Source: Escherichia coli
Lineage (GTDB): Bacteria; Pseudomonadota; Gammaproteobacteria; Enterobacterales; Enterobacteriaceae
NCBI RefSeq assembly: GCF_041248615.1
Contig: NZ_CP158426.1
Length of the DNA stretch: 64,000 nt
Strand: one strand, 5' to 3'
A model generated the notes under the pieces. The model was not told the DNA's origin, did no database searches, and saw only the letters and a list, made by a program, of their open reading frames with translations. Shown one piece after another: positions 13,312 through 61,390 of the stretch. Positions within the stretch are counted from its first letter, which is position 1. The number at the start of each line of letters is the position of its first letter. The position numbers and the translations under genes were made by a program.

Positions 13312-13974
13312 ATGGAACTGTATCTGGACACCGCTAACGTCGCAGAAGTCGAACGTCTGGCACGTATATTCCCGATTGCCGGGGTGACAACTAACCCGAG
13401 CATTATCGCTGCCAGCAAGGAGTCCATCTGGGAAGTGCTGCCGCGCCTGCAAAAAGCGATCGGTGATGAGGGCATTCTGTTTGCTCAGACCATGAGCCGT
13501 GATGCGCAGGGAATGGTGGAAGAAGCGAAGCGCCTGCGCGACACCATTCCGGGCATTGTGGTTAAAATCCCGGTGACTTCCGAAGGTCTGGCAGCAATTA
13601 AAATACTGAAAAAAGAGGGTATTACTACACTTGGCACCGCTGTATATAGCGCCGCACAAGGGTTATTAGCCGCACTGGCAGGGGCAAAATACGTTGCTCC
13701 GTATGTTAACCGCGTAGATGCCCAGGGCGGAGACGGCATTCGTACGGTTCAGGAGCTGCAAGCGCTGTTAGAAATGCACGCACCAGAAAGCATGGTGCTG
13801 GCGGCCAGCTTTAAAACGCCGCGTCAGGCGCTGGACTGTTTACTGGCAGGATGTGAATCCATCACCCTGCCCTTAGATGTAGCGCAACAAATGCTCAACA
13901 CCCCTGCGGTAGAGTCAGCTATAGAGAAGTTCGAACACGACTGGAATGCCGCATTTGGCACTACTCATCTCTAA
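13312..13974 (+). CDS. fsaB: Fructose-6-phosphate aldolase 2, 220 aa
   Basis: ORF 13312..13974; transaldolase-like TIM-barrel sequence ([13 protein letters not shown]...). Confidence 0.93.
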
Positions 13975-13984
13975 AGGAGCAATT

Positions 13985-15088
13985 ATGGACCGCATTATTC
14001 AATCACCGGGTAAATACATCCAGGGCGCTGATGTGATTAATCGTCTGGGCGAATACCTGAAGCCGCTGGCAGAACGCTGGTTAGTGGTGGGTGACAAATT
14101 TGTTTTAGGTTTTGCTCAATCCACTGTCGAGAAAAGCTTTAAAGATGCTGGACTGGTAGTAGAAATTGCGCCGTTTGGCGGTGAATGTTCGCAAAATGAG
14201 ATCGACCGTCTGCGTGGCATCGCGGAGACTGCGCAGTGTGGCGCAATTCTCGGTATCGGTGGCGGAAAAACTCTCGATACTGCCAAAGCACTGGCACATT
14301 TCATGGGTGTTCCGGTAGCGATCGCACCGACTATCGCCTCTACCGACGCACCGTGCAGCGCATTGTCTGTTATCTACACCGATGATGGTGAATTTGACCG
14401 CTATCTGATGTTGCCAAATAACCCGAATATGGTCATTGTCGACACCAAAATCGTCGCTGGCGCACCTGCACGTCTGTTAGCGGCGGGTATCGGCGATGCG
14501 CTGGCAACCTGGTTTGAAGCACGCGCCTGTTCCCGTAGCGGCGCGACCACTATGGCGGGCGGCAAGTGTACCCAGGCGGCGCTGGCACTGGCAGAACTGT
14601 GCTACAACACTCTGCTGGAAGAAGGCGAAAAAGCGATGCTTGCCGCCGAACAGCATGTAGTGACTCCGGCGCTGGAGCGCGTGATTGAAGCGAACACCTA
14701 TTTGAGCGGCGTTGGTTTTGAAAGCGGCGGGCTGGCGGCGGCTCACGCGGTGCATAACGGCCTGACCGCTATCCCGGACGCGCATCACTATTACCACGGT
14801 GAAAAAGTGGCATTTGGTACGCTGACGCAGCTGGTTCTGGAAAATGCGCCGGTGGAGGAAATCGAAACCGTAGCTGCACTTAGCCATGCGGTAGGTTTGC
14901 CAATAACTCTCGCTCAACTGGATATTAAAGAAGATGTCCCGGCGAAAATGCGAATTGTGGCAGAAGCGGCATGTGCAGAAGGTGAAACCATCCACAACAT
15001 GCCTGGCGGCGCGACGCCAGATCAGGTTTACGCTGCACTGCTGGTAGCCGACCAGTACGGTCAGCGTTTCCTGCAAGAGTGGGAATAA
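13985..15088 (+). CDS. gldA: Glycerol dehydrogenase, 367 aa
   Basis: ORF 13946..15088 trimmed to [17 protein letters not shown]; iron-type alcohol dehydrogenase fold ([13 protein letters not shown]). Confidence 0.93.
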
Positions 15089-15159
15089 CCTACTCCAAAC
15101 TCCCGGATTGTCCGGGAGTTTGAGAGTGCAGGCAAAGTGGCTCACTCGTCACTGCGGGC

Positions 15160-15275
15160 ATGTTTTTCCCCCTCGCCCTTTCAGGGAGAGGGTCGGGATG
15201 AGGGTAAATATTCGCCCCGGAGCTGGCCTGTTCCCCTCACCCTAACCCTCTCCCCAAAGGGGAGAGGGGACTGTT
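15160..15275. repeat. Intergenic GC-rich palindromic repeat, boxC/RSA-like, two subunits
   Basis: ccctcgccctttcagggagagggtcggg and cccctcaccctaaccctctccccaaaggggagagggg; an inverted copy of the same family lies at 60340..60500. Confidence 0.7.
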
Positions 15276-15418
15276 CGAGCACTTTTTATACGTTATCACC
15301 CGTCTGAAACTCACACGTTGTTCAGGAATTTTTTATCCGCTTCTGGACATTTTCTCTACAGAACAATCGTTAGCCCGGAAGGTCGAATCTGTGACTCTTA
15401 TTTTCACGGACGAACCAG

Positions 15419-16036
15419 ATGAAAGCTTCACTGGCGCTGGTCAGCCTGCTAACGGCGTTTACCAGCAACTCCTTAAAATCTCCGGCCGTTCCACCAACCG
15501 TGGTACAAATCCAGGCCAACACCAACCTTGCCATCGCAGACGGTGCCAGACAGCAAATCGGCAGCACGCTATTTTACGATCCGGCGTATGTGCAGCTTAC
15601 CTATCCTGGCGGTGATGTCCCGCAAGAACGCGGCGTATGTTCCGATGTGGTGATCCGCGCCTTGCGCAGCCAGAAGGTCGATTTGCAGAAACTGGTTCAC
15701 GAAGATATGGCGAAGAATTTTGCTGAGTACCCGCAAAAATGGCAGTTAAAGCGCCCGGACAGCAACATCGATCACCGTCGGGTGCCTAATCTGGAAACCT
15801 GGTTTAGCCGCCATGATAAAACACGCCCCACCAGCAAGAACCCCAGTGACTATCAAGCGGGCGATATTGTCTCCTGGCGACTGGATAACGGGCTGGCGCA
15901 TATTGGGGTGGTGTCAGATGGCTTTGCCCGCGACGGTACGCCGCTGGTGATACATAACATTGGCGCAGGCGCGCAGGAAGAAGACGTGCTGTTTAGCTGG
16001 CGGATGGTGGGGCACTATCGGTATTTTGTTAAATAA
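15419..16036 (+). CDS. yijF: Uncharacterised exported protein YijF (DUF1287 family), 205 aa
   Basis: ORF 15419..16036 with N-terminal signal peptide MKASLALVSLLTAF. Confidence 0.85.
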   Translation: MKASLALVSLLTAFTSNSLKSPAVPPTVVQIQANTNLAIADGARQQIGSTLFYDPAYVQLTYPGGDVPQERGVCSDVVIRALRSQKVDLQKLVHEDMAKNFAEYPQKWQLKRPDSNIDHRRVPNLETWFSRHDKTRPTSKNPSDYQAGDIVSWRLDNGLAHIGVVSDGFARDGTPLVIHNIGAGAQEEDVLFSWRMVGHYRYFVK

Positions 16037-55246: not shown

Positions 55247-55345
55247 GCCGGATGCGGCGCGAACGCCTTATCCGGCCTACAAAAGTTTGCAAATTCAATA
55301 AATTGCAGAATTCATGTAGGCCTGATAAGCGAAGCGCATCCGGCA
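55247..55345. repeat. REP/BIME element: two inverted REP palindromic units
   Basis: gccggatgcggcgcgaacgccttatccggcctac and its inverted partner gtaggcctgataagcgaagcgcatccggca. Confidence 0.85.
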
Positions 55346-58243: not shown

Positions 58244-58942
58244 ATGAATAAAATCCTGTTAGTTGATGATGACCGAGAGCTGACTTCCCTATTAAAGGAG
58301 CTGCTCGAGATGGAAGGCTTCAACGTGATTGTTGCCCACGATGGGGAACAGGCGCTTGATCTTCTGGACGACAGCATTGATTTACTTTTGCTTGATGTAA
58401 TGATGCCGAAGAAAAATGGTATCGACACATTAAAAGCACTTCGCCAGACACACCAGACGCCTGTCATTATGTTGACGGCGCGCGGCAGTGAACTTGATCG
58501 CGTTCTCGGCCTTGAGCTGGGCGCAGATGACTATCTCCCGAAACCGTTTAATGATCGTGAGCTGGTGGCACGTATTCGCGCGATCCTGCGCCGTTCGCAC
58601 TGGAGTGAGCAACAGCAAAATAACGACAACGGTTCACCGACACTGGAAGTTGATGCCTTAGTGCTGAATCCAGGCCGTCAGGAAGCCAGCTTCGACGGGC
58701 AAACGCTGGAGTTAACCGGCACTGAGTTTACCCTGCTCTATTTGCTGGCACAGCATCTGGGTCAGGTGGTTTCCCGTGAGCATTTAAGCCAGGAAGTGCT
58801 GGGCAAACGCCTGACGCCTTTCGACCGCGCTATCGATATGCACATTTCCAACCTGCGTCGTAAACTGCCGGATCGTAAAGATGGTCACCCGTGGTTTAAA
58901 ACCTTGCGTGGTCGCGGCTATCTGATGGTTTCTGCTTCATGA
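58244..58942 (+). CDS. cpxR: Envelope-stress response regulator CpxR (OmpR family), 232 aa
   Basis: ORF 58244..58942 (MNKILLVDDDRELTSLLKELL). Confidence 0.97.
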   Translation: MNKILLVDDDRELTSLLKELLEMEGFNVIVAHDGEQALDLLDDSIDLLLLDVMMPKKNGIDTLKALRQTHQTPVIMLTARGSELDRVLGLELGADDYLPKPFNDRELVARIRAILRRSHWSEQQQNNDNGSPTLEVDALVLNPGRQEASFDGQTLELTGTEFTLLYLLAQHLGQVVSREHLSQEVLGKRLTPFDRAIDMHISNLRRKLPDRKDGHPWFKTLRGRGYLMVSAS

Positions 58943-60312
58943 TAGGCAGCTTAACCGCGCGCATCTTCGCCATCTTCTGGCTGACGCTGGCGCTGGTGTT
59001 GATGTTAGTTTTGATGTTACCCAAGCTCGATTCACGCCAGATGACCGAGCTTCTGGATAGCGAACAGCGTCAGGGGCTGATGATTGAGCAGCATGTTGAA
59101 GCGGAGCTGGCGAACGATCCGCCCAACGATTTAATGTGGTGGCGGCGTCTGTTCCGGGCGATTGATAAGTGGGCACCGCCAGGACAGCGTTTGTTATTGG
59201 TGACCACCGAAGGCCGCGTGATCGGCGCTGAACGCAGCGAAATGCAGATCATTCGTAACTTTATTGGTCAGGCCGATAACGCCGATCATCCGCAGAAGAA
59301 AAAGTATGGCCGCGTGGAACTGGTCGGTCCGTTCTCAGTGCGTGATGGCGAAGATAATTACCAACTTTATCTGATTCGTCCGGCCAGCAGTTCTCAATCC
59401 GATTTCATTAACTTACTGTTTGACCGCCCGCTATTACTGCTGATTGTCACCATGCTGGTCAGTACGCCGCTGCTGTTGTGGTTGGCCTGGAGTCTGGCAA
59501 AACCGGCGCGTAAGCTGAAAAACGCGGCCGATGAAGTTGCCCAGGGAAACTTACGCCAGCACCCGGAACTGGAAGCGGGGCCACAGGAATTCCTTGCCGC
59601 AGGTGCCAGTTTTAACCAGATGGTCACCGCGCTGGAGCGTATGATGACCTCTCAGCAGCGTCTGCTTTCTGATATCTCTCACGAGCTGCGCACGCCGCTG
59701 ACGCGTCTGCAACTGGGTACGGCGTTACTGCGCCGTCGTAGCGGTGAAAGCAAGGAACTGGAGCGTATTGAAACCGAAGCGCAACGTCTGGACAGCATGA
59801 TTAACGACCTGTTGGTGATGTCACGTAATCAGCAAAAAAACGCGCTGGTTAGCGAGACCATCAAAGCCAATCAGTTGTGGAGTGAAGTGCTGGATAACGC
59901 GGCGTTCGAAGCCGAGCAAATGGGCAAGTCGTTGACAGTTAACTTCCCGCCTGGGCCGTGGCCGCTGTACGGCAACCCGAACGCCCTGGAGAGTGCGCTG
60001 GAAAACATTGTTCGTAATGCCCTGCGTTATTCCCATACGAAGATTGAAGTGGGCTTTGCGGTAGATAAAGACGGTATCACCATTACGGTGGACGACGATG
60101 GTCCTGGCGTTAGCCCGGAAGATCGCGAACAGATTTTCCGTCCGTTCTATCGTACCGATGAAGCACGCGATCGTGAATCTGGCGGTACAGGTTTGGGGCT
60201 GGCAATTGTTGAAACCGCCATTCAGCAGCATCGTGGCTGGGTTAAAGCGGAAGACAGCCCGCTGGGCGGTTTACGGCTGGTGATTTGGTTGCCGCTGTAT
60301 AAGCGGAGTTAA
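58939..60312 (+). CDS. cpxA: Envelope-stress sensor histidine kinase CpxA, 457 aa
   Basis: ORF 58939..60312; H-box SHELRTPLTR; 4-bp overlap with cpxR. Confidence 0.97.
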   Translation: MIGSLTARIFAIFWLTLALVLMLVLMLPKLDSRQMTELLDSEQRQGLMIEQHVEAELANDPPNDLMWWRRLFRAIDKWAPPGQRLLLVTTEGRVIGAERSEMQIIRNFIGQADNADHPQKKKYGRVELVGPFSVRDGEDNYQLYLIRPASSSQSDFINLLFDRPLLLLIVTMLVSTPLLLWLAWSLAKPARKLKNAADEVAQGNLRQHPELEAGPQEFLAAGASFNQMVTALERMMTSQQRLLSDISHELRTPLTRLQLGTALLRRRSGESKELERIETEAQRLDSMINDLLVMSRNQQKNALVSETIKANQLWSEVLDNAAFEAEQMGKSLTVNFPPGPWPLYGNPNALESALENIVRNALRYSHTKIEVGFAVDKDGITITVDDDGPGVSPEDREQIFRPFYRTDEARDRESGGTGLGLAIVETAIQQHRGWVKAEDSPLGGLRLVIWLPLYKRS

Positions 60313-60339
60313 ACTCGGCGCAGTGCCGTCCCCTTCGGG

Positions 60340-60500
60340 GTGAAGGCAACAGGTCAGCACTGTGCGAACTGATACCCTCACCACGGCCCTCTCCCTGAAA
60401 GGGCGAGGGGAAAAACGTAGCCCTGTTCAGCAACGGAGCTGAGCACCGCTCCGGACAGTCCCCTCGCCCCTCTGGGGAGAGGGTTAGGGTGAGGGGAAAA
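60340..60500. repeat. Intergenic GC-rich palindromic repeat, boxC/RSA-like, inverted relative to the 15160..15275 copy
   Basis: ccctcaccacggccctctccctgaaagggcgagggg and cccctcgcccctctggggagagggttagggtgagggg are reverse complements of the units at 15160..15275. Confidence 0.7.
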
Positions 60501-60566
60501 ATTCAGCACAATGCAAACGGCACTGCTCTCACCGGAAACCATGCCAGATTTCGTATTAAGGCAGAC

Positions 60567-61241
60567 TTATTTTCCCCACAACCGGCGGGAAAAATCTTCG
60601 ATCTTGCCGCTCAGTCGGCGCTTTTGCATCGTCCGCGTCCAGCTTTTCGATAACCCGGCGGCGGAGAGTAAACGGTGATACTGCTCGTCATCAAACGGCA
60701 TATGCCATGCGATGGCGGCAGCCTCCTGCACGGTCACATCGCTGACACGGGAAACCAACTCCAGCGGCGCATCAGCAGATACCAACCCTGGCGCTATCAC
60801 GCTATACAACCACCCCACTTTACCTGTGTTTTGCATCAACTGCGCTATATCGCTGATATCAAAATGGTAATTGAGTTTATAGCAAGGTGAGCGTGGCTGG
60901 CTGACCTGAATTAATGCCTCTCCCCAGCGGAAAATATCGCCAATATAAACATTACTTTCCGTCAGACCGTCGGTTGAGAGATTTTCGCCAAACGCAGGCG
61001 CAACAAACAACTCCGCCTGTTCCGGAAATTCCCGCGCCCAGTAGAGATAGTGCTCACGAGGATAATGACACAGCGCTCTGTCTGGCCCGCCGTGAACCTT
61101 TTTCTCCGCCTGCTCGTCACCTTCCAGCCCCAGCTCCGTCAGCATCAACTCACCATCAACCTGGATTTTGGCAATTGCGCTGGGTTTGCCTTCGGGATAA
61201 GCCTGAATCTTGCCTGTGTATACATCAACCGGATATCGCAT
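60567..61241 (-). CDS. yiiM: MOSC-domain protein YiiM, 224 aa
   Basis: ORF 60567..61271 trimmed to MRYPVDVYTGKIQAYPEG. Confidence 0.88.
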   Translation of the reverse strand: MRYPVDVYTGKIQAYPEGKPSAIAKIQVDGELMLTELGLEGDEQAEKKVHGGPDRALCHYPREHYLYWAREFPEQAELFVAPAFGENLSTDGLTESNVYIGDIFRWGEALIQVSQPRSPCYKLNYHFDISDIAQLMQNTGKVGWLYSVIAPGLVSADAPLELVSRVSDVTVQEAAAIAWHMPFDDEQYHRLLSAAGLSKSWTRTMQKRRLSGKIEDFSRRLWGK

Positions 61242-61390
61242 CTGTTCCCTCTCCACGAGAAATTTCCCCATTAGACCATATTTATTTTATGTCAGGCGTG
61301 CTGTTTTCGCGGTATGTATCCAGGCAGTAGCTCAAATAGAAAACCGGACGAACGTTAGTTCATCCGGCTGTGGGGATTAAGGAAGCAGGT

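What the first reader, a model, noticed from the sequence alone, without database searches (positions are those of the whole stretch)
15160..15275. Same GC-rich palindromic intergenic repeat family at two loci in opposite orientation
The gldA-yijF spacer and the cpxA-yiiM spacer (60340..60500) carry near-identical units (ccctcaccc...ccctctcc...gggagaggg) as reverse complements. They are probably members of a known E. coli small repeat family (boxC/RSA-type), and are potential sites for recombination or transcript stabilisation.
Basis: seen in the sequence. Interest (0 to 1): 0.2.

Follow-up and report, generated by a model that had tools for sequence, protein, structure and literature searches.

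The report
Known BoxC repeats in paired form
The two spacers each carry an inverted pair of BoxC repeats, a long-known E. coli intergenic repeat also called PIT or TMECO. This is ordinary, except that both pairs are minority, strain-variable cassettes lying where E. coli K-12 has REP/BIME repeats instead.

Summary
The window holds exactly four copies of one three-block GC-rich repeat:
- gldA-yijF spacer: 15170-15204 (+) and 15234-15268 (-)
- cpxA-yiiM spacer: 60375-60409 (-) and 60461-60495 (+)

Two copies match the published TMECO/BoxC pattern CCCTCNCCC-N3-6-GGGNGAGGG-N3-GGGNGAGGG exactly; none are expected by chance. The other two miss it by one base. One copy is identical to four catalogued K-12 copies.

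Each spacer holds a type A plus type B inverted pair, as published for K-12. The pairs differ in layout: convergent at gldA-yijF, divergent at cpxA-yiiM. The loci are therefore not mirror images of each other.

The repeat is in 5424 of 5426 complete E. coli genomes, with a median of 16 places per genome. There is no Rfam family, no REP or ERIC signature, and no terminator or promoter form.

Both pairs are minority alleles: about 12% of genomes at gldA-yijF and 3% at cpxA-yiiM. K-12 carries REP/BIME at both sites. Each pair belongs to a larger cassette of about 140-190 bp that recurs at unlinked loci at 85-89% identity.

Verdict: already known (BoxC/PIT/TMECO), low interest. The cassette behaviour and the BoxC-versus-BIME alternation are the only mildly new observations.

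The parts
15170..15204 (+). BoxC/TMECO unit 1a, type B (loop 2 = TCG). It has one mismatch to the pattern in the third block (GGATGAGGG).
   Evidence: It differs by 2 bases from K-12 TMECO no. 10.
15234..15268 (-). BoxC/TMECO unit 1b, type A (loop 2 = TTA). Exact pattern match with a perfect 10-bp hairpin.
   Evidence: It differs by 1 base from K-12 TMECO no. 7/11/15.
15119..15309 (.). Convergent-pair cassette: left flank, unit B ->, 29-nt linker, <- unit A, right flank. Positions 15124-15302 are the segment that differs from the K-12 allele, which carries a two-REP BIME there.
   Evidence: 85% identity over 191 nt to the K-12 ygfF-gcvP pair module. K-12 comparison. The full spacer is present in 630-640 of 5426 genomes.
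60375..60409 (-). BoxC/TMECO unit 2a, type B (loop 2 = CCG). It has one mismatch in the third block (TGGTGAGGG).
   Evidence: It differs by 1 base from K-12 TMECO no. 10.
60461..60495 (+). BoxC/TMECO unit 2b, type A mm (loop 2 = TTA). Exact pattern match.
   Evidence: Identical to K-12 TMECO nos 9, 16, 19 and 22.
60363..60501 (.). Divergent-pair cassette: <- unit B, 51-nt linker, unit A ->. It recurs as a whole elsewhere in E. coli.
   Evidence: 89% identity over 139 nt to a pair in the rhaA-rhaD spacer of strain WY517-2.
60316..60566 (.). Strain-variable segment: almost the whole cpxA-yiiM spacer. It replaces the 102-nt REP-containing sequence of K-12. Positions 60339-60533 form a long imperfect palindrome.
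   Evidence: K-12 comparison. (160 of 5426 genomes have this allele). (self reverse-complement alignment, 72% over 185 nt). (RNA fold -130.9 kcal/mol, z = -8.35).

Best explanation
The four units are copies of the BoxC repeat of E. coli. The same element has been re-described as the PIT element and as TMECO. They are arranged as two type-A plus type-B inverted pairs.

They are non-coding, chromosome-borne repeats with no dedicated function for the flanking genes. Each unit has a C-rich block, a complementary G-rich block and a second G-rich block. As single-stranded DNA or RNA, the first two blocks form a 9-10 bp hairpin. The third block can fold back on it as a purine-motif intrastrand triplex. 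That triplex was shown in vitro for K-12 copies, one of which is identical to unit 2b; its formation here is inferred.

Each pair sits inside a larger imperfect palindrome of about 140-190 bp. That palindrome behaves as a cassette: present or absent between strains, and recurring at unlinked loci. How it spreads is unknown.

The observable consequence is local structural polymorphism of the spacer: whole-cassette gain or loss, replacement against REP/BIME alleles, and deletions between the repeated 9-mers. It is not gene regulation. The polymorphism is shown here; its cause (hairpin, triplex or slippage during replication) is inferred.
For: **Pattern and statistics.** Searches give 2 exact and 2 one-mismatch matches, with 0 expected by chance.

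**Identity to catalogued K-12 copies, and A/B typing.** (Table 1 of PMC4666352; 23 copies in MG1655, always intergenic, five A+B inverted pairs).

**Census.**: 5424 of 5426 genomes, median 16 and range 1-27 places per genome, with only 35 of 79,929 places on plasmids.

**Cassette nature.**
- 191 nt at 85% identity to the ygfF-gcvP module.
- 139 nt at 89% identity to a pair in rhaA-rhaD of another strain.
- a clean 186-nt presence/absence at fepB-entC.

**Polymorphism.**
- locus 1 is in 630-640 genomes, against 4592 with the K-12 BIME allele.
- locus 2 is in 160 genomes.
- an inter-unit deletion at alx-sstT, and remnants at lldD-trmL.

**Structure.**: hairpins, and very stable long palindromes with z = -5.9 and -8.35.

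**Literature.** In vitro triplex by CD/NMR and higher variability around TMECO loci: PMC4666352.

**No regulatory signature.** (no Rfam family; no promoter; no terminator formed by the units).
Against: - Two of the four units (1a, 2a) fail the strict published pattern by one base in the third block, which would weaken any triplex.
- Holder et al. found no protection in in vivo DMS footprinting, so triplex formation in cells is unproven.
- The link between BoxC and instability is correlative. BoxC could simply accumulate in spacers that are variable for other reasons; REP/BIME, IS621 and other changes occur at the same sites.
- No transposase, terminal inverted repeats or consistent target duplication were found, so 'cassette' is descriptive only.
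Confidence: 0.9

Rival explanations
1. MITE-like mobile cassette. The A+B pair with its flanks is a non-autonomous element of about 140-190 bp. It is mobilised in trans and inserts into, or replaces, spacer DNA, often REP/BIME-bearing spacers. This concerns how the repeat spreads, so it is compatible with the best explanation.
For: - A clean 186-nt presence/absence at fepB-entC, with a possible TAA duplication at the junctions.
- Whole modules shared at 85-89% identity between unlinked loci.
- Long palindromic symmetry.
- REP/BIME is the alternative or adjacent allele at 4 of 8 pair loci.
- In a Methylomirabilota MAG, all three convergent pairs of the same motif have ACGGTGAC upstream, and two of the three also have the complementary GTCACCGT downstream.
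Against: - No terminal inverted repeat at the E. coli module ends.
- The target duplication was seen once only and is ambiguous.
- No duplication at gldA-yijF or ygfF-gcvP.
- No associated transposase is known.
- The two window loci are replacements rather than simple insertions.
- Four of 8 loci show no REP link.
Confidence: 0.3
2. Functional 3'-end RNA elements. The hairpins would act as transcript stabilisers, terminators or insulators for gldA, cpxA and yiiM, as REP/BIME elements do.
For: - Both lie downstream of gene 3' ends.
- They occupy the same sites as REP/BIME in K-12.
- The predicted RNA structures are very stable.
Against: - No U-run follows the unit hairpins; T- and A-runs lie on the wrong side.
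- gldA has its own hairpin at 15095-15128, upstream of the cassette.
- Holder et al., citing their ref. 41, report no promoter or terminator activity and no effect on RNA polymerase.
- The alleles are present in only 3-12% of strains, so they are dispensable.
- Other copies lie in promoter-side spacers such as fepB-entC.
Confidence: 0.1
3. The loci are RSA repeats, or the A+B composite is what older catalogues call RSA (152 bp, 6 copies in K-12).
For: Only a size and copy-number resemblance, recalled from memory. The composites are about 140-190 bp, and K-12 has five strict pairs.
Against: No RSA sequence could be retrieved. The units themselves are unambiguously BoxC.
Confidence: 0.1
4. Chance similarity of low-complexity GC runs, or REP/BIME or ERIC elements misread.
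For: The blocks are G- or C-rich 9-mers.
Against: - Zero chance expectation.
- Similarity extends through loops and flanks.
- No REP hallmark k-mers in either spacer, while the K-12 alleles have them.
- No ERIC primer-site matches in the window.
Confidence: 0.01

Closest known systems
BoxC repeat = PIT element (Hoyne et al. 2000) = TMECO (Holder et al. 2015, PMC4666352)
   Same: - The three-block sequence pattern.
- Type A (TTA) and type B (CCG/TCG) second loops.
- Intergenic and chromosomal location.
- About 16-23 copies per genome.
- A+B inverted pairs in both convergent and divergent layouts, with the same spacings as the K-12 pairs.
- Unit 2b is identical to four K-12 copies.
   Different: - Neither locus carries the repeat in K-12 MG1655, so they are absent from the published K-12 list.
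- Both type-B units have a one-base defect in the third block.
- Not emphasised in the paper I read: the pairs are cores of larger cassettes of about 140-190 bp that recur as wholes.
REP/BIME (PU) elements
   Same: - Short GC-rich palindromic intergenic repeats, often in inverted pairs downstream of genes.
- They occupy exactly these two spacers in K-12.
   Different: - An unrelated sequence: no GCCGGATG- or GCCTGATG-type motifs.
- BoxC has a third block and no known partner proteins (IHF, gyrase, RAYT transposase) and no known mRNA-stabilising role (own knowledge).
MITEs (for example ERIC/IRU, Neisseria Correia elements)
   Same: - Size of about 100-200 bp, long imperfect palindrome, intergenic.
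- Presence/absence polymorphism between strains, including the clean 186-nt indel at fepB-entC.
   Different: No defined terminal inverted repeats, no consistent target-site duplication, and no cognate transposase identified.

Membership tests
BoxC / PIT / TMECO | Three-block motif CCCTCNCCC-N3-6-GGGNGAGGG-N3-GGGNGAGGG (Holder 2015) | tested here: met
   Units 1b and 2b match exactly. Units 1a and 2a each have one mismatch in block 3, which corresponds to the paper's 'mutated TMECO' category.
BoxC / PIT / TMECO | Second loop of type A (TTA) or type B (CCG, also TCG in K-12 nos 12 and 20) | tested here: met
   1b and 2b have TTA, 2a has CCG, and 1a has TCG.
BoxC / PIT / TMECO | Intergenic, dispersed, multi-copy on the E. 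coli chromosome (about 20-30 copies per genome) | tested here: met
   Both loci lie between annotated genes. Found in 5424 of 5426 genomes, median 16 places, 99.96% on chromosomes.
BoxC / PIT / TMECO | Closely spaced inverted pairs always combine one type A with one type B | tested here: met
   Locus 1 is B-> <-A with a 29-nt gap. Locus 2 is <-B A-> with a 51-nt gap. The K-12 pairs have gaps of 16-27 nt (convergent) and 59 nt (divergent).
BoxC / PIT / TMECO | Near-identity to catalogued members | tested here: met
   2b is identical to K-12 nos 9/16/19/22. Units 1b, 2a and 1a differ by 1, 1 and 2 bases from nos 7, 10 and 10.
BoxC / PIT / TMECO | Single strand folds into an intrastrand purine-motif triplex | not testable with these tools
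   ViennaRNA predicts only the hairpin. CD/NMR evidence exists for K-12 oligonucleotides (PMC4666352).
REP / BIME | REP consensus motifs (GCCGGATG..., GCCTGATG..., CTTATCCGGCCTAC) | tested here: not met
   No hallmark k-mers in either window spacer. They are present in the K-12 alleles of both spacers.
RSA | Match to the 152-bp RSA consensus | not tested
   The consensus could not be retrieved.
ERIC / IRU | Central conserved inverted repeat (ERIC1R/ERIC2 primer sites, recalled from memory) | tested here: not met
   No match with up to 5 mismatches anywhere in the window.
Intrinsic terminator | GC-rich hairpin followed directly by a U-run | tested here: not met
   No site in the consensus scans is formed by a unit hairpin. 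T-runs precede the hairpins and A-runs follow them.
MITE | Terminal inverted repeats plus target-site duplication | tested here: inconclusive
   The long internal palindrome is clear. Only one possible TAA duplication was seen, at fepB-entC, and none at the window loci.
Any Rfam RNA family | Covariance-model match at the gathering score | tested here: not met
   Only sub-threshold miRNA-hairpin look-alikes were found.

The most novel reading that the evidence does not exclude
BoxC A+B pairs are the cores of discrete palindromic cassettes of about 140-190 bp that move as units. They preferentially land in, or exchange with, REP/BIME-bearing spacers. That would imply a shared target structure or shared machinery with REP elements, and would give BoxC a mobility mechanism it has lacked for 30 years.
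Probability: 0.2. Interest if true: 0.5.

Novelty: already known. Interest (0 to 1): 0.15.

Why it matters
As found, it matters little. It is a correct sighting of a catalogued repeat with no demonstrated function.

It is useful practically in three ways:
- The two spacers are strain-variable markers, with BoxC-pair and BIME alleles.
- Annotators should not read the strong hairpins as sRNAs or terminators.
- The strict published pattern misses half of the copies here.

The cassette behaviour and the BoxC/BIME alternation, if general, could give a handle on how BoxC spreads and why its loci are unusually variable.

Tried and rejected
- **Rfam.** Permissive searches at both loci and a gathering-threshold search of the whole window gave only sub-threshold miRNA-like hairpin matches.
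- **Promoter and terminator scans.** Nothing is attributable to the units.
- **RSA consensus and original BoxC papers.** Not obtainable. Three literature searches returned mostly irrelevant hits (snoRNA 'box C/D') or none, and the 1997 Genetics paper on BIME polymorphism is not held.
- **Gene names in the Holder et al. supplements.** No hits, so I could not check whether these two loci are among their 63 loci.
- **Empty site at gldA-yijF.** None found among the sampled alleles. Only the BIME allele, BIME plus IS621, and the BoxC-pair allele were seen.
- **Fuzzy-regex scan.** A first attempt missed the one-mismatch units and was replaced by an explicit scan.

Full report
**1. What is there**

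The window is E. coli chromosome, not K-12. It runs ptsA-fsaB-gldA-yijF ... cpxR-cpxA / yiiM-kdgT.

The 330-bp gldA-yijF spacer lies between gldA (13946-15088, +) and yijF (15419-16036, +). The 254-bp spacer between the convergent genes cpxA (58939-60312, +) and yiiM (60567-61271, -) is the second locus. Each spacer contains two copies of one repeat.

An explicit scan with the published three-block pattern gives exactly four units and nothing else in 64 kb:
- 1a: + 15170-15204
- 1b: - 15234-15268
- 2a: - 60375-60409
- 2b: + 60461-60495

The strict pattern matches 1b and 2b, with 0.00 expected in 100 dinucleotide shuffles. Units 1a and 2a each miss by one base in the third block. No hit with up to 2 mismatches occurred in 30 Markov surrogates.

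The best inter-locus matches are reverse-complement ones: 88% over 56 nt and 85% over 52 nt. They include loops and flanks, so the similarity is not just GC runs.

The refinement is that each locus is itself an inverted pair. Locus 1 is convergent (units point at each other, 29 nt apart). Locus 2 is divergent (units point away, 51 nt apart). The loci are not reverse complements of one another as wholes.

**2. What it is**

The pattern CCCTCNCCC-N3-6-GGGNGAGGG-N3-GGGNGAGGG is the 'TMECO' of Holder et al. 2015 (PMC4666352). Those authors state it is the element first described as BoxC in the 1990s and re-found by Hoyne et al. (2000) as the PIT element.

Their Table 1 lists 23 copies in MG1655. 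Compared with that list:
- 2b is identical to nos 9, 16, 19 and 22.
- 1b differs by one base from nos 7, 11 and 15.
- 2a differs by one base and 1a by two bases from no. 10.

They distinguish type A (second loop TTA) from type B (CCG; TCG also occurs). They report that closely spaced inverted pairs always combine A with B. Both window pairs do so: 1a is B and 1b is A; 2a is B and 2b is A. The spacings fall in the K-12 ranges for convergent and divergent pairs.

A 68-nt query around unit 2b finds the repeat in 5424 of 5426 complete E. coli genomes. The median is 16 places per genome, the range is 1-27, and 35 of 79,929 places are on plasmids. This agrees with the published copy numbers of 23-32.

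Other families were excluded:
- REP hallmark motifs are absent from both spacers.
- ERIC primer sites are absent from the window.
- No Rfam family matches.

**3. Context: both loci are minority alleles**

MG1655 has no BoxC at either site.

At gldA-yijF, the K-12 spacer is 274 bp. It carries a two-REP BIME where the window has its pair. The alleles share flanks up to 15123 and from 15303.

At cpxA-yiiM, the K-12 spacer is 105 bp. It again carries REP sequences, and essentially the whole spacer (60316-66) differs.

Among 5426 complete genomes:
- The window's gldA-yijF allele is in 630-640 genomes, against 4592 with the K-12 BIME allele.
- The window's cpxA-yiiM allele is in only 160 genomes.

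One strain has IS621 inserted in the BIME allele of gldA-yijF.

**4. The pairs are cores of larger cassettes**

Window 15119-15309 aligns end to end with the K-12 ygfF-gcvP pair and its flanks: 191 nt at 85% identity. That is almost exactly the segment that distinguishes the window from K-12.

Window 60363-60501 is 89% identical over 139 nt to a divergent pair in the rhaA-rhaD spacer of strain WY517-2.

At fepB-entC, the K-12 pair with flanks is a clean 186-nt presence/absence relative to strain AVS0343. A TAA occurs at both junctions, which could be a target duplication, but this is a single case.

Both window cassettes are long imperfect palindromes. Their predicted single-strand folds are very stable: -106.9 kcal/mol with z = -5.9, and -130.9 kcal/mol with z = -8.35.

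Sister loci show the decay forms that Holder et al. described:
- A deletion between the CCCTCTCCC blocks of the two units, leaving one hairpin, at alx-sstT.
- Remnants and internal replacements at lldD-trmL.
- About 100 nt absent at hrpB-mrcB.

REP/BIME is the alternative or adjacent allele at 4 of the 8 pair loci I looked at: gldA-yijF, cpxA-yiiM, bglA/ygfF-gcvP and rhaA-rhaD. It is not at the other four. From memory, Bachellier et al. (Genetics 1997) already reported boxC insertions in BIME-containing regions of natural isolates. I could not retrieve that paper.

**5. How it most likely works**

Shown here:
- Family identity and copy number.
- A+B pairing.
- Cassette recurrence at unlinked loci.
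- Strain polymorphism at both window loci and at sister loci.
- Absence of terminator or promoter form: the T-run precedes and the A-run follows the hairpins.

Shown by others:
- Single-stranded K-12 units, including the sequence of 2b, form an intrastrand purine-motif triplex in vitro.
- No triplex footprint was seen in vivo.
- No promoter or terminator activity was found.
- TMECO loci are more variable between strains than control spacers.

Inferred: these elements have no dedicated function for gldA, yijF, cpxA or yiiM. They persist as neutral or selfish DNA. Their practical effect is to make the spacer structurally unstable. The likely routes are hairpin or triplex formation and slippage between the repeated 9-mers when the DNA is single-stranded. 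How cassettes reach new sites is unknown. A MITE-like route is possible but lacks terminal repeats, a consistent target duplication and a transposase.

**6. Wider occurrence (in passing)**

The exact pattern is also found in:
- A Methylomirabilota MAG, with 13 units. All three convergent pairs (29-31 nt gaps, as in E. coli) have ACGGTGAC upstream. Two of the three also have the complementary GTCACCGT downstream.
- Mitsuaria chitosanitabida, with at least 100 units.
- Candidatus Contendobacter.
- At least 120 IMG/VR contigs.

**7. Verdict**

The finding is a correct sighting of a known repeat family. Novelty: already known. Interest: low (0.15).

The most novel reading not excluded is that A+B pairs are mobile cassettes with a preference for REP/BIME sites. 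I put that at a probability of about 0.2.

Noticed in passing
window 15124-15302 and 60316-60566, compared with L001 3659-3932 and L003 2498-2602: At both loci K-12 MG1655 carries REP/BIME sequences exactly where this strain carries the BoxC pair. The two alleles share no sequence between the common flanks. REP is the alternative or adjacent allele at 4 of 8 BoxC-pair loci examined.
   Followed up: partly
L005 (K-12 fepB-entC) compared with L141 (strain AVS0343): The BoxC pair with its flanks is a clean 186-nt insertion/deletion, with TAA at both junctions. This may be a target-site duplication, but it is a single case.
   Followed up: partly
L139 1148-1388 (strain WY517-2, rhaA-rhaD) compared with L140 2274-2723 (K-12): K-12 has a nine-REP BIME array of about 400 bp between rhaA and rhaD. 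WY517-2 keeps only the first REP, followed by a divergent BoxC pair that is 89% identical to the window's cpxA-yiiM pair.
   Followed up: partly
L137 (strain GN04530, alx-sstT) compared with L007: A deletion between the CCCTCTCCC blocks of the two inverted units collapses the pair into a single perfect hairpin. This is the 'palindrome effect' described by Holder et al.
   Followed up: yes
L136 (O145 strain RM8988-C1, lldD-trmL spacer): A 35-nt perfect palindrome, CTGTCTCTTGATCAGATCTCCTGATCAAGAGACAG, lies between the remnants of the two BoxC units. From memory it resembles two IS50-type ends placed back to back.
   Followed up: no
L130 (strain 99_0849, gldA-yijF region): An IS621 (IS110-like) transposase gene is annotated immediately upstream of the yijF-proximal part of the K-12-type spacer, where gldA lies in other strains. 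I read this as an IS621 insertion into that BIME allele. From memory, IS621 targets REP sequences.
   Followed up: no
L010 1500-1700, L015 and L016 940-1130 (Methylomirabilota MAG JACPAT01); L017-L088 (Mitsuaria chitosanitabida): The exact TMECO pattern occurs in distant phyla. In the Methylomirabilota MAG, all three convergent pairs (29-31 nt gaps, as in E. coli) have ACGGTGAC upstream, and two of the three have the complementary GTCACCGT downstream. Mitsuaria has at least 100 units with loop 1 = GCTTGC.
   Followed up: partly
L143-L262 (IMG/VR contigs): The pattern is present on at least 120 predicted viral contigs with GC content from 0.32 to 0.74. L184 carries a unit identical to 2b near a contig end. 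Holder et al. reported no association with phages for the E. coli element. Host-DNA carry-over in the viral predictions is not excluded.
   Followed up: no
window 55247-55330: This is the only canonical REP/BIME in the 64-kb window. Rfam calls 55282-55323 the ES036 (CssrF) sRNA at gathering score.
   Followed up: no
window 15095-15128: A perfect 15-bp hairpin (CTCCAAACTCCCGG...CCGGGAGTTTGAGAG) lies directly after the gldA stop codon. It is shared with K-12 and lies upstream of the BoxC cassette. It is the likely gldA 3'-end structure, although it has no clear U-run.
   Followed up: no
L132 and L133 (JJ1886 and O157:H7, bglA-gcvP) compared with L006: ygfF and the adjacent BoxC pair are absent together from B2 and O157 strains. 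Those strains have a 165-bp spacer with a single REP instead. The K-12 allele is in 3025 of 5426 genomes.
   Followed up: partly
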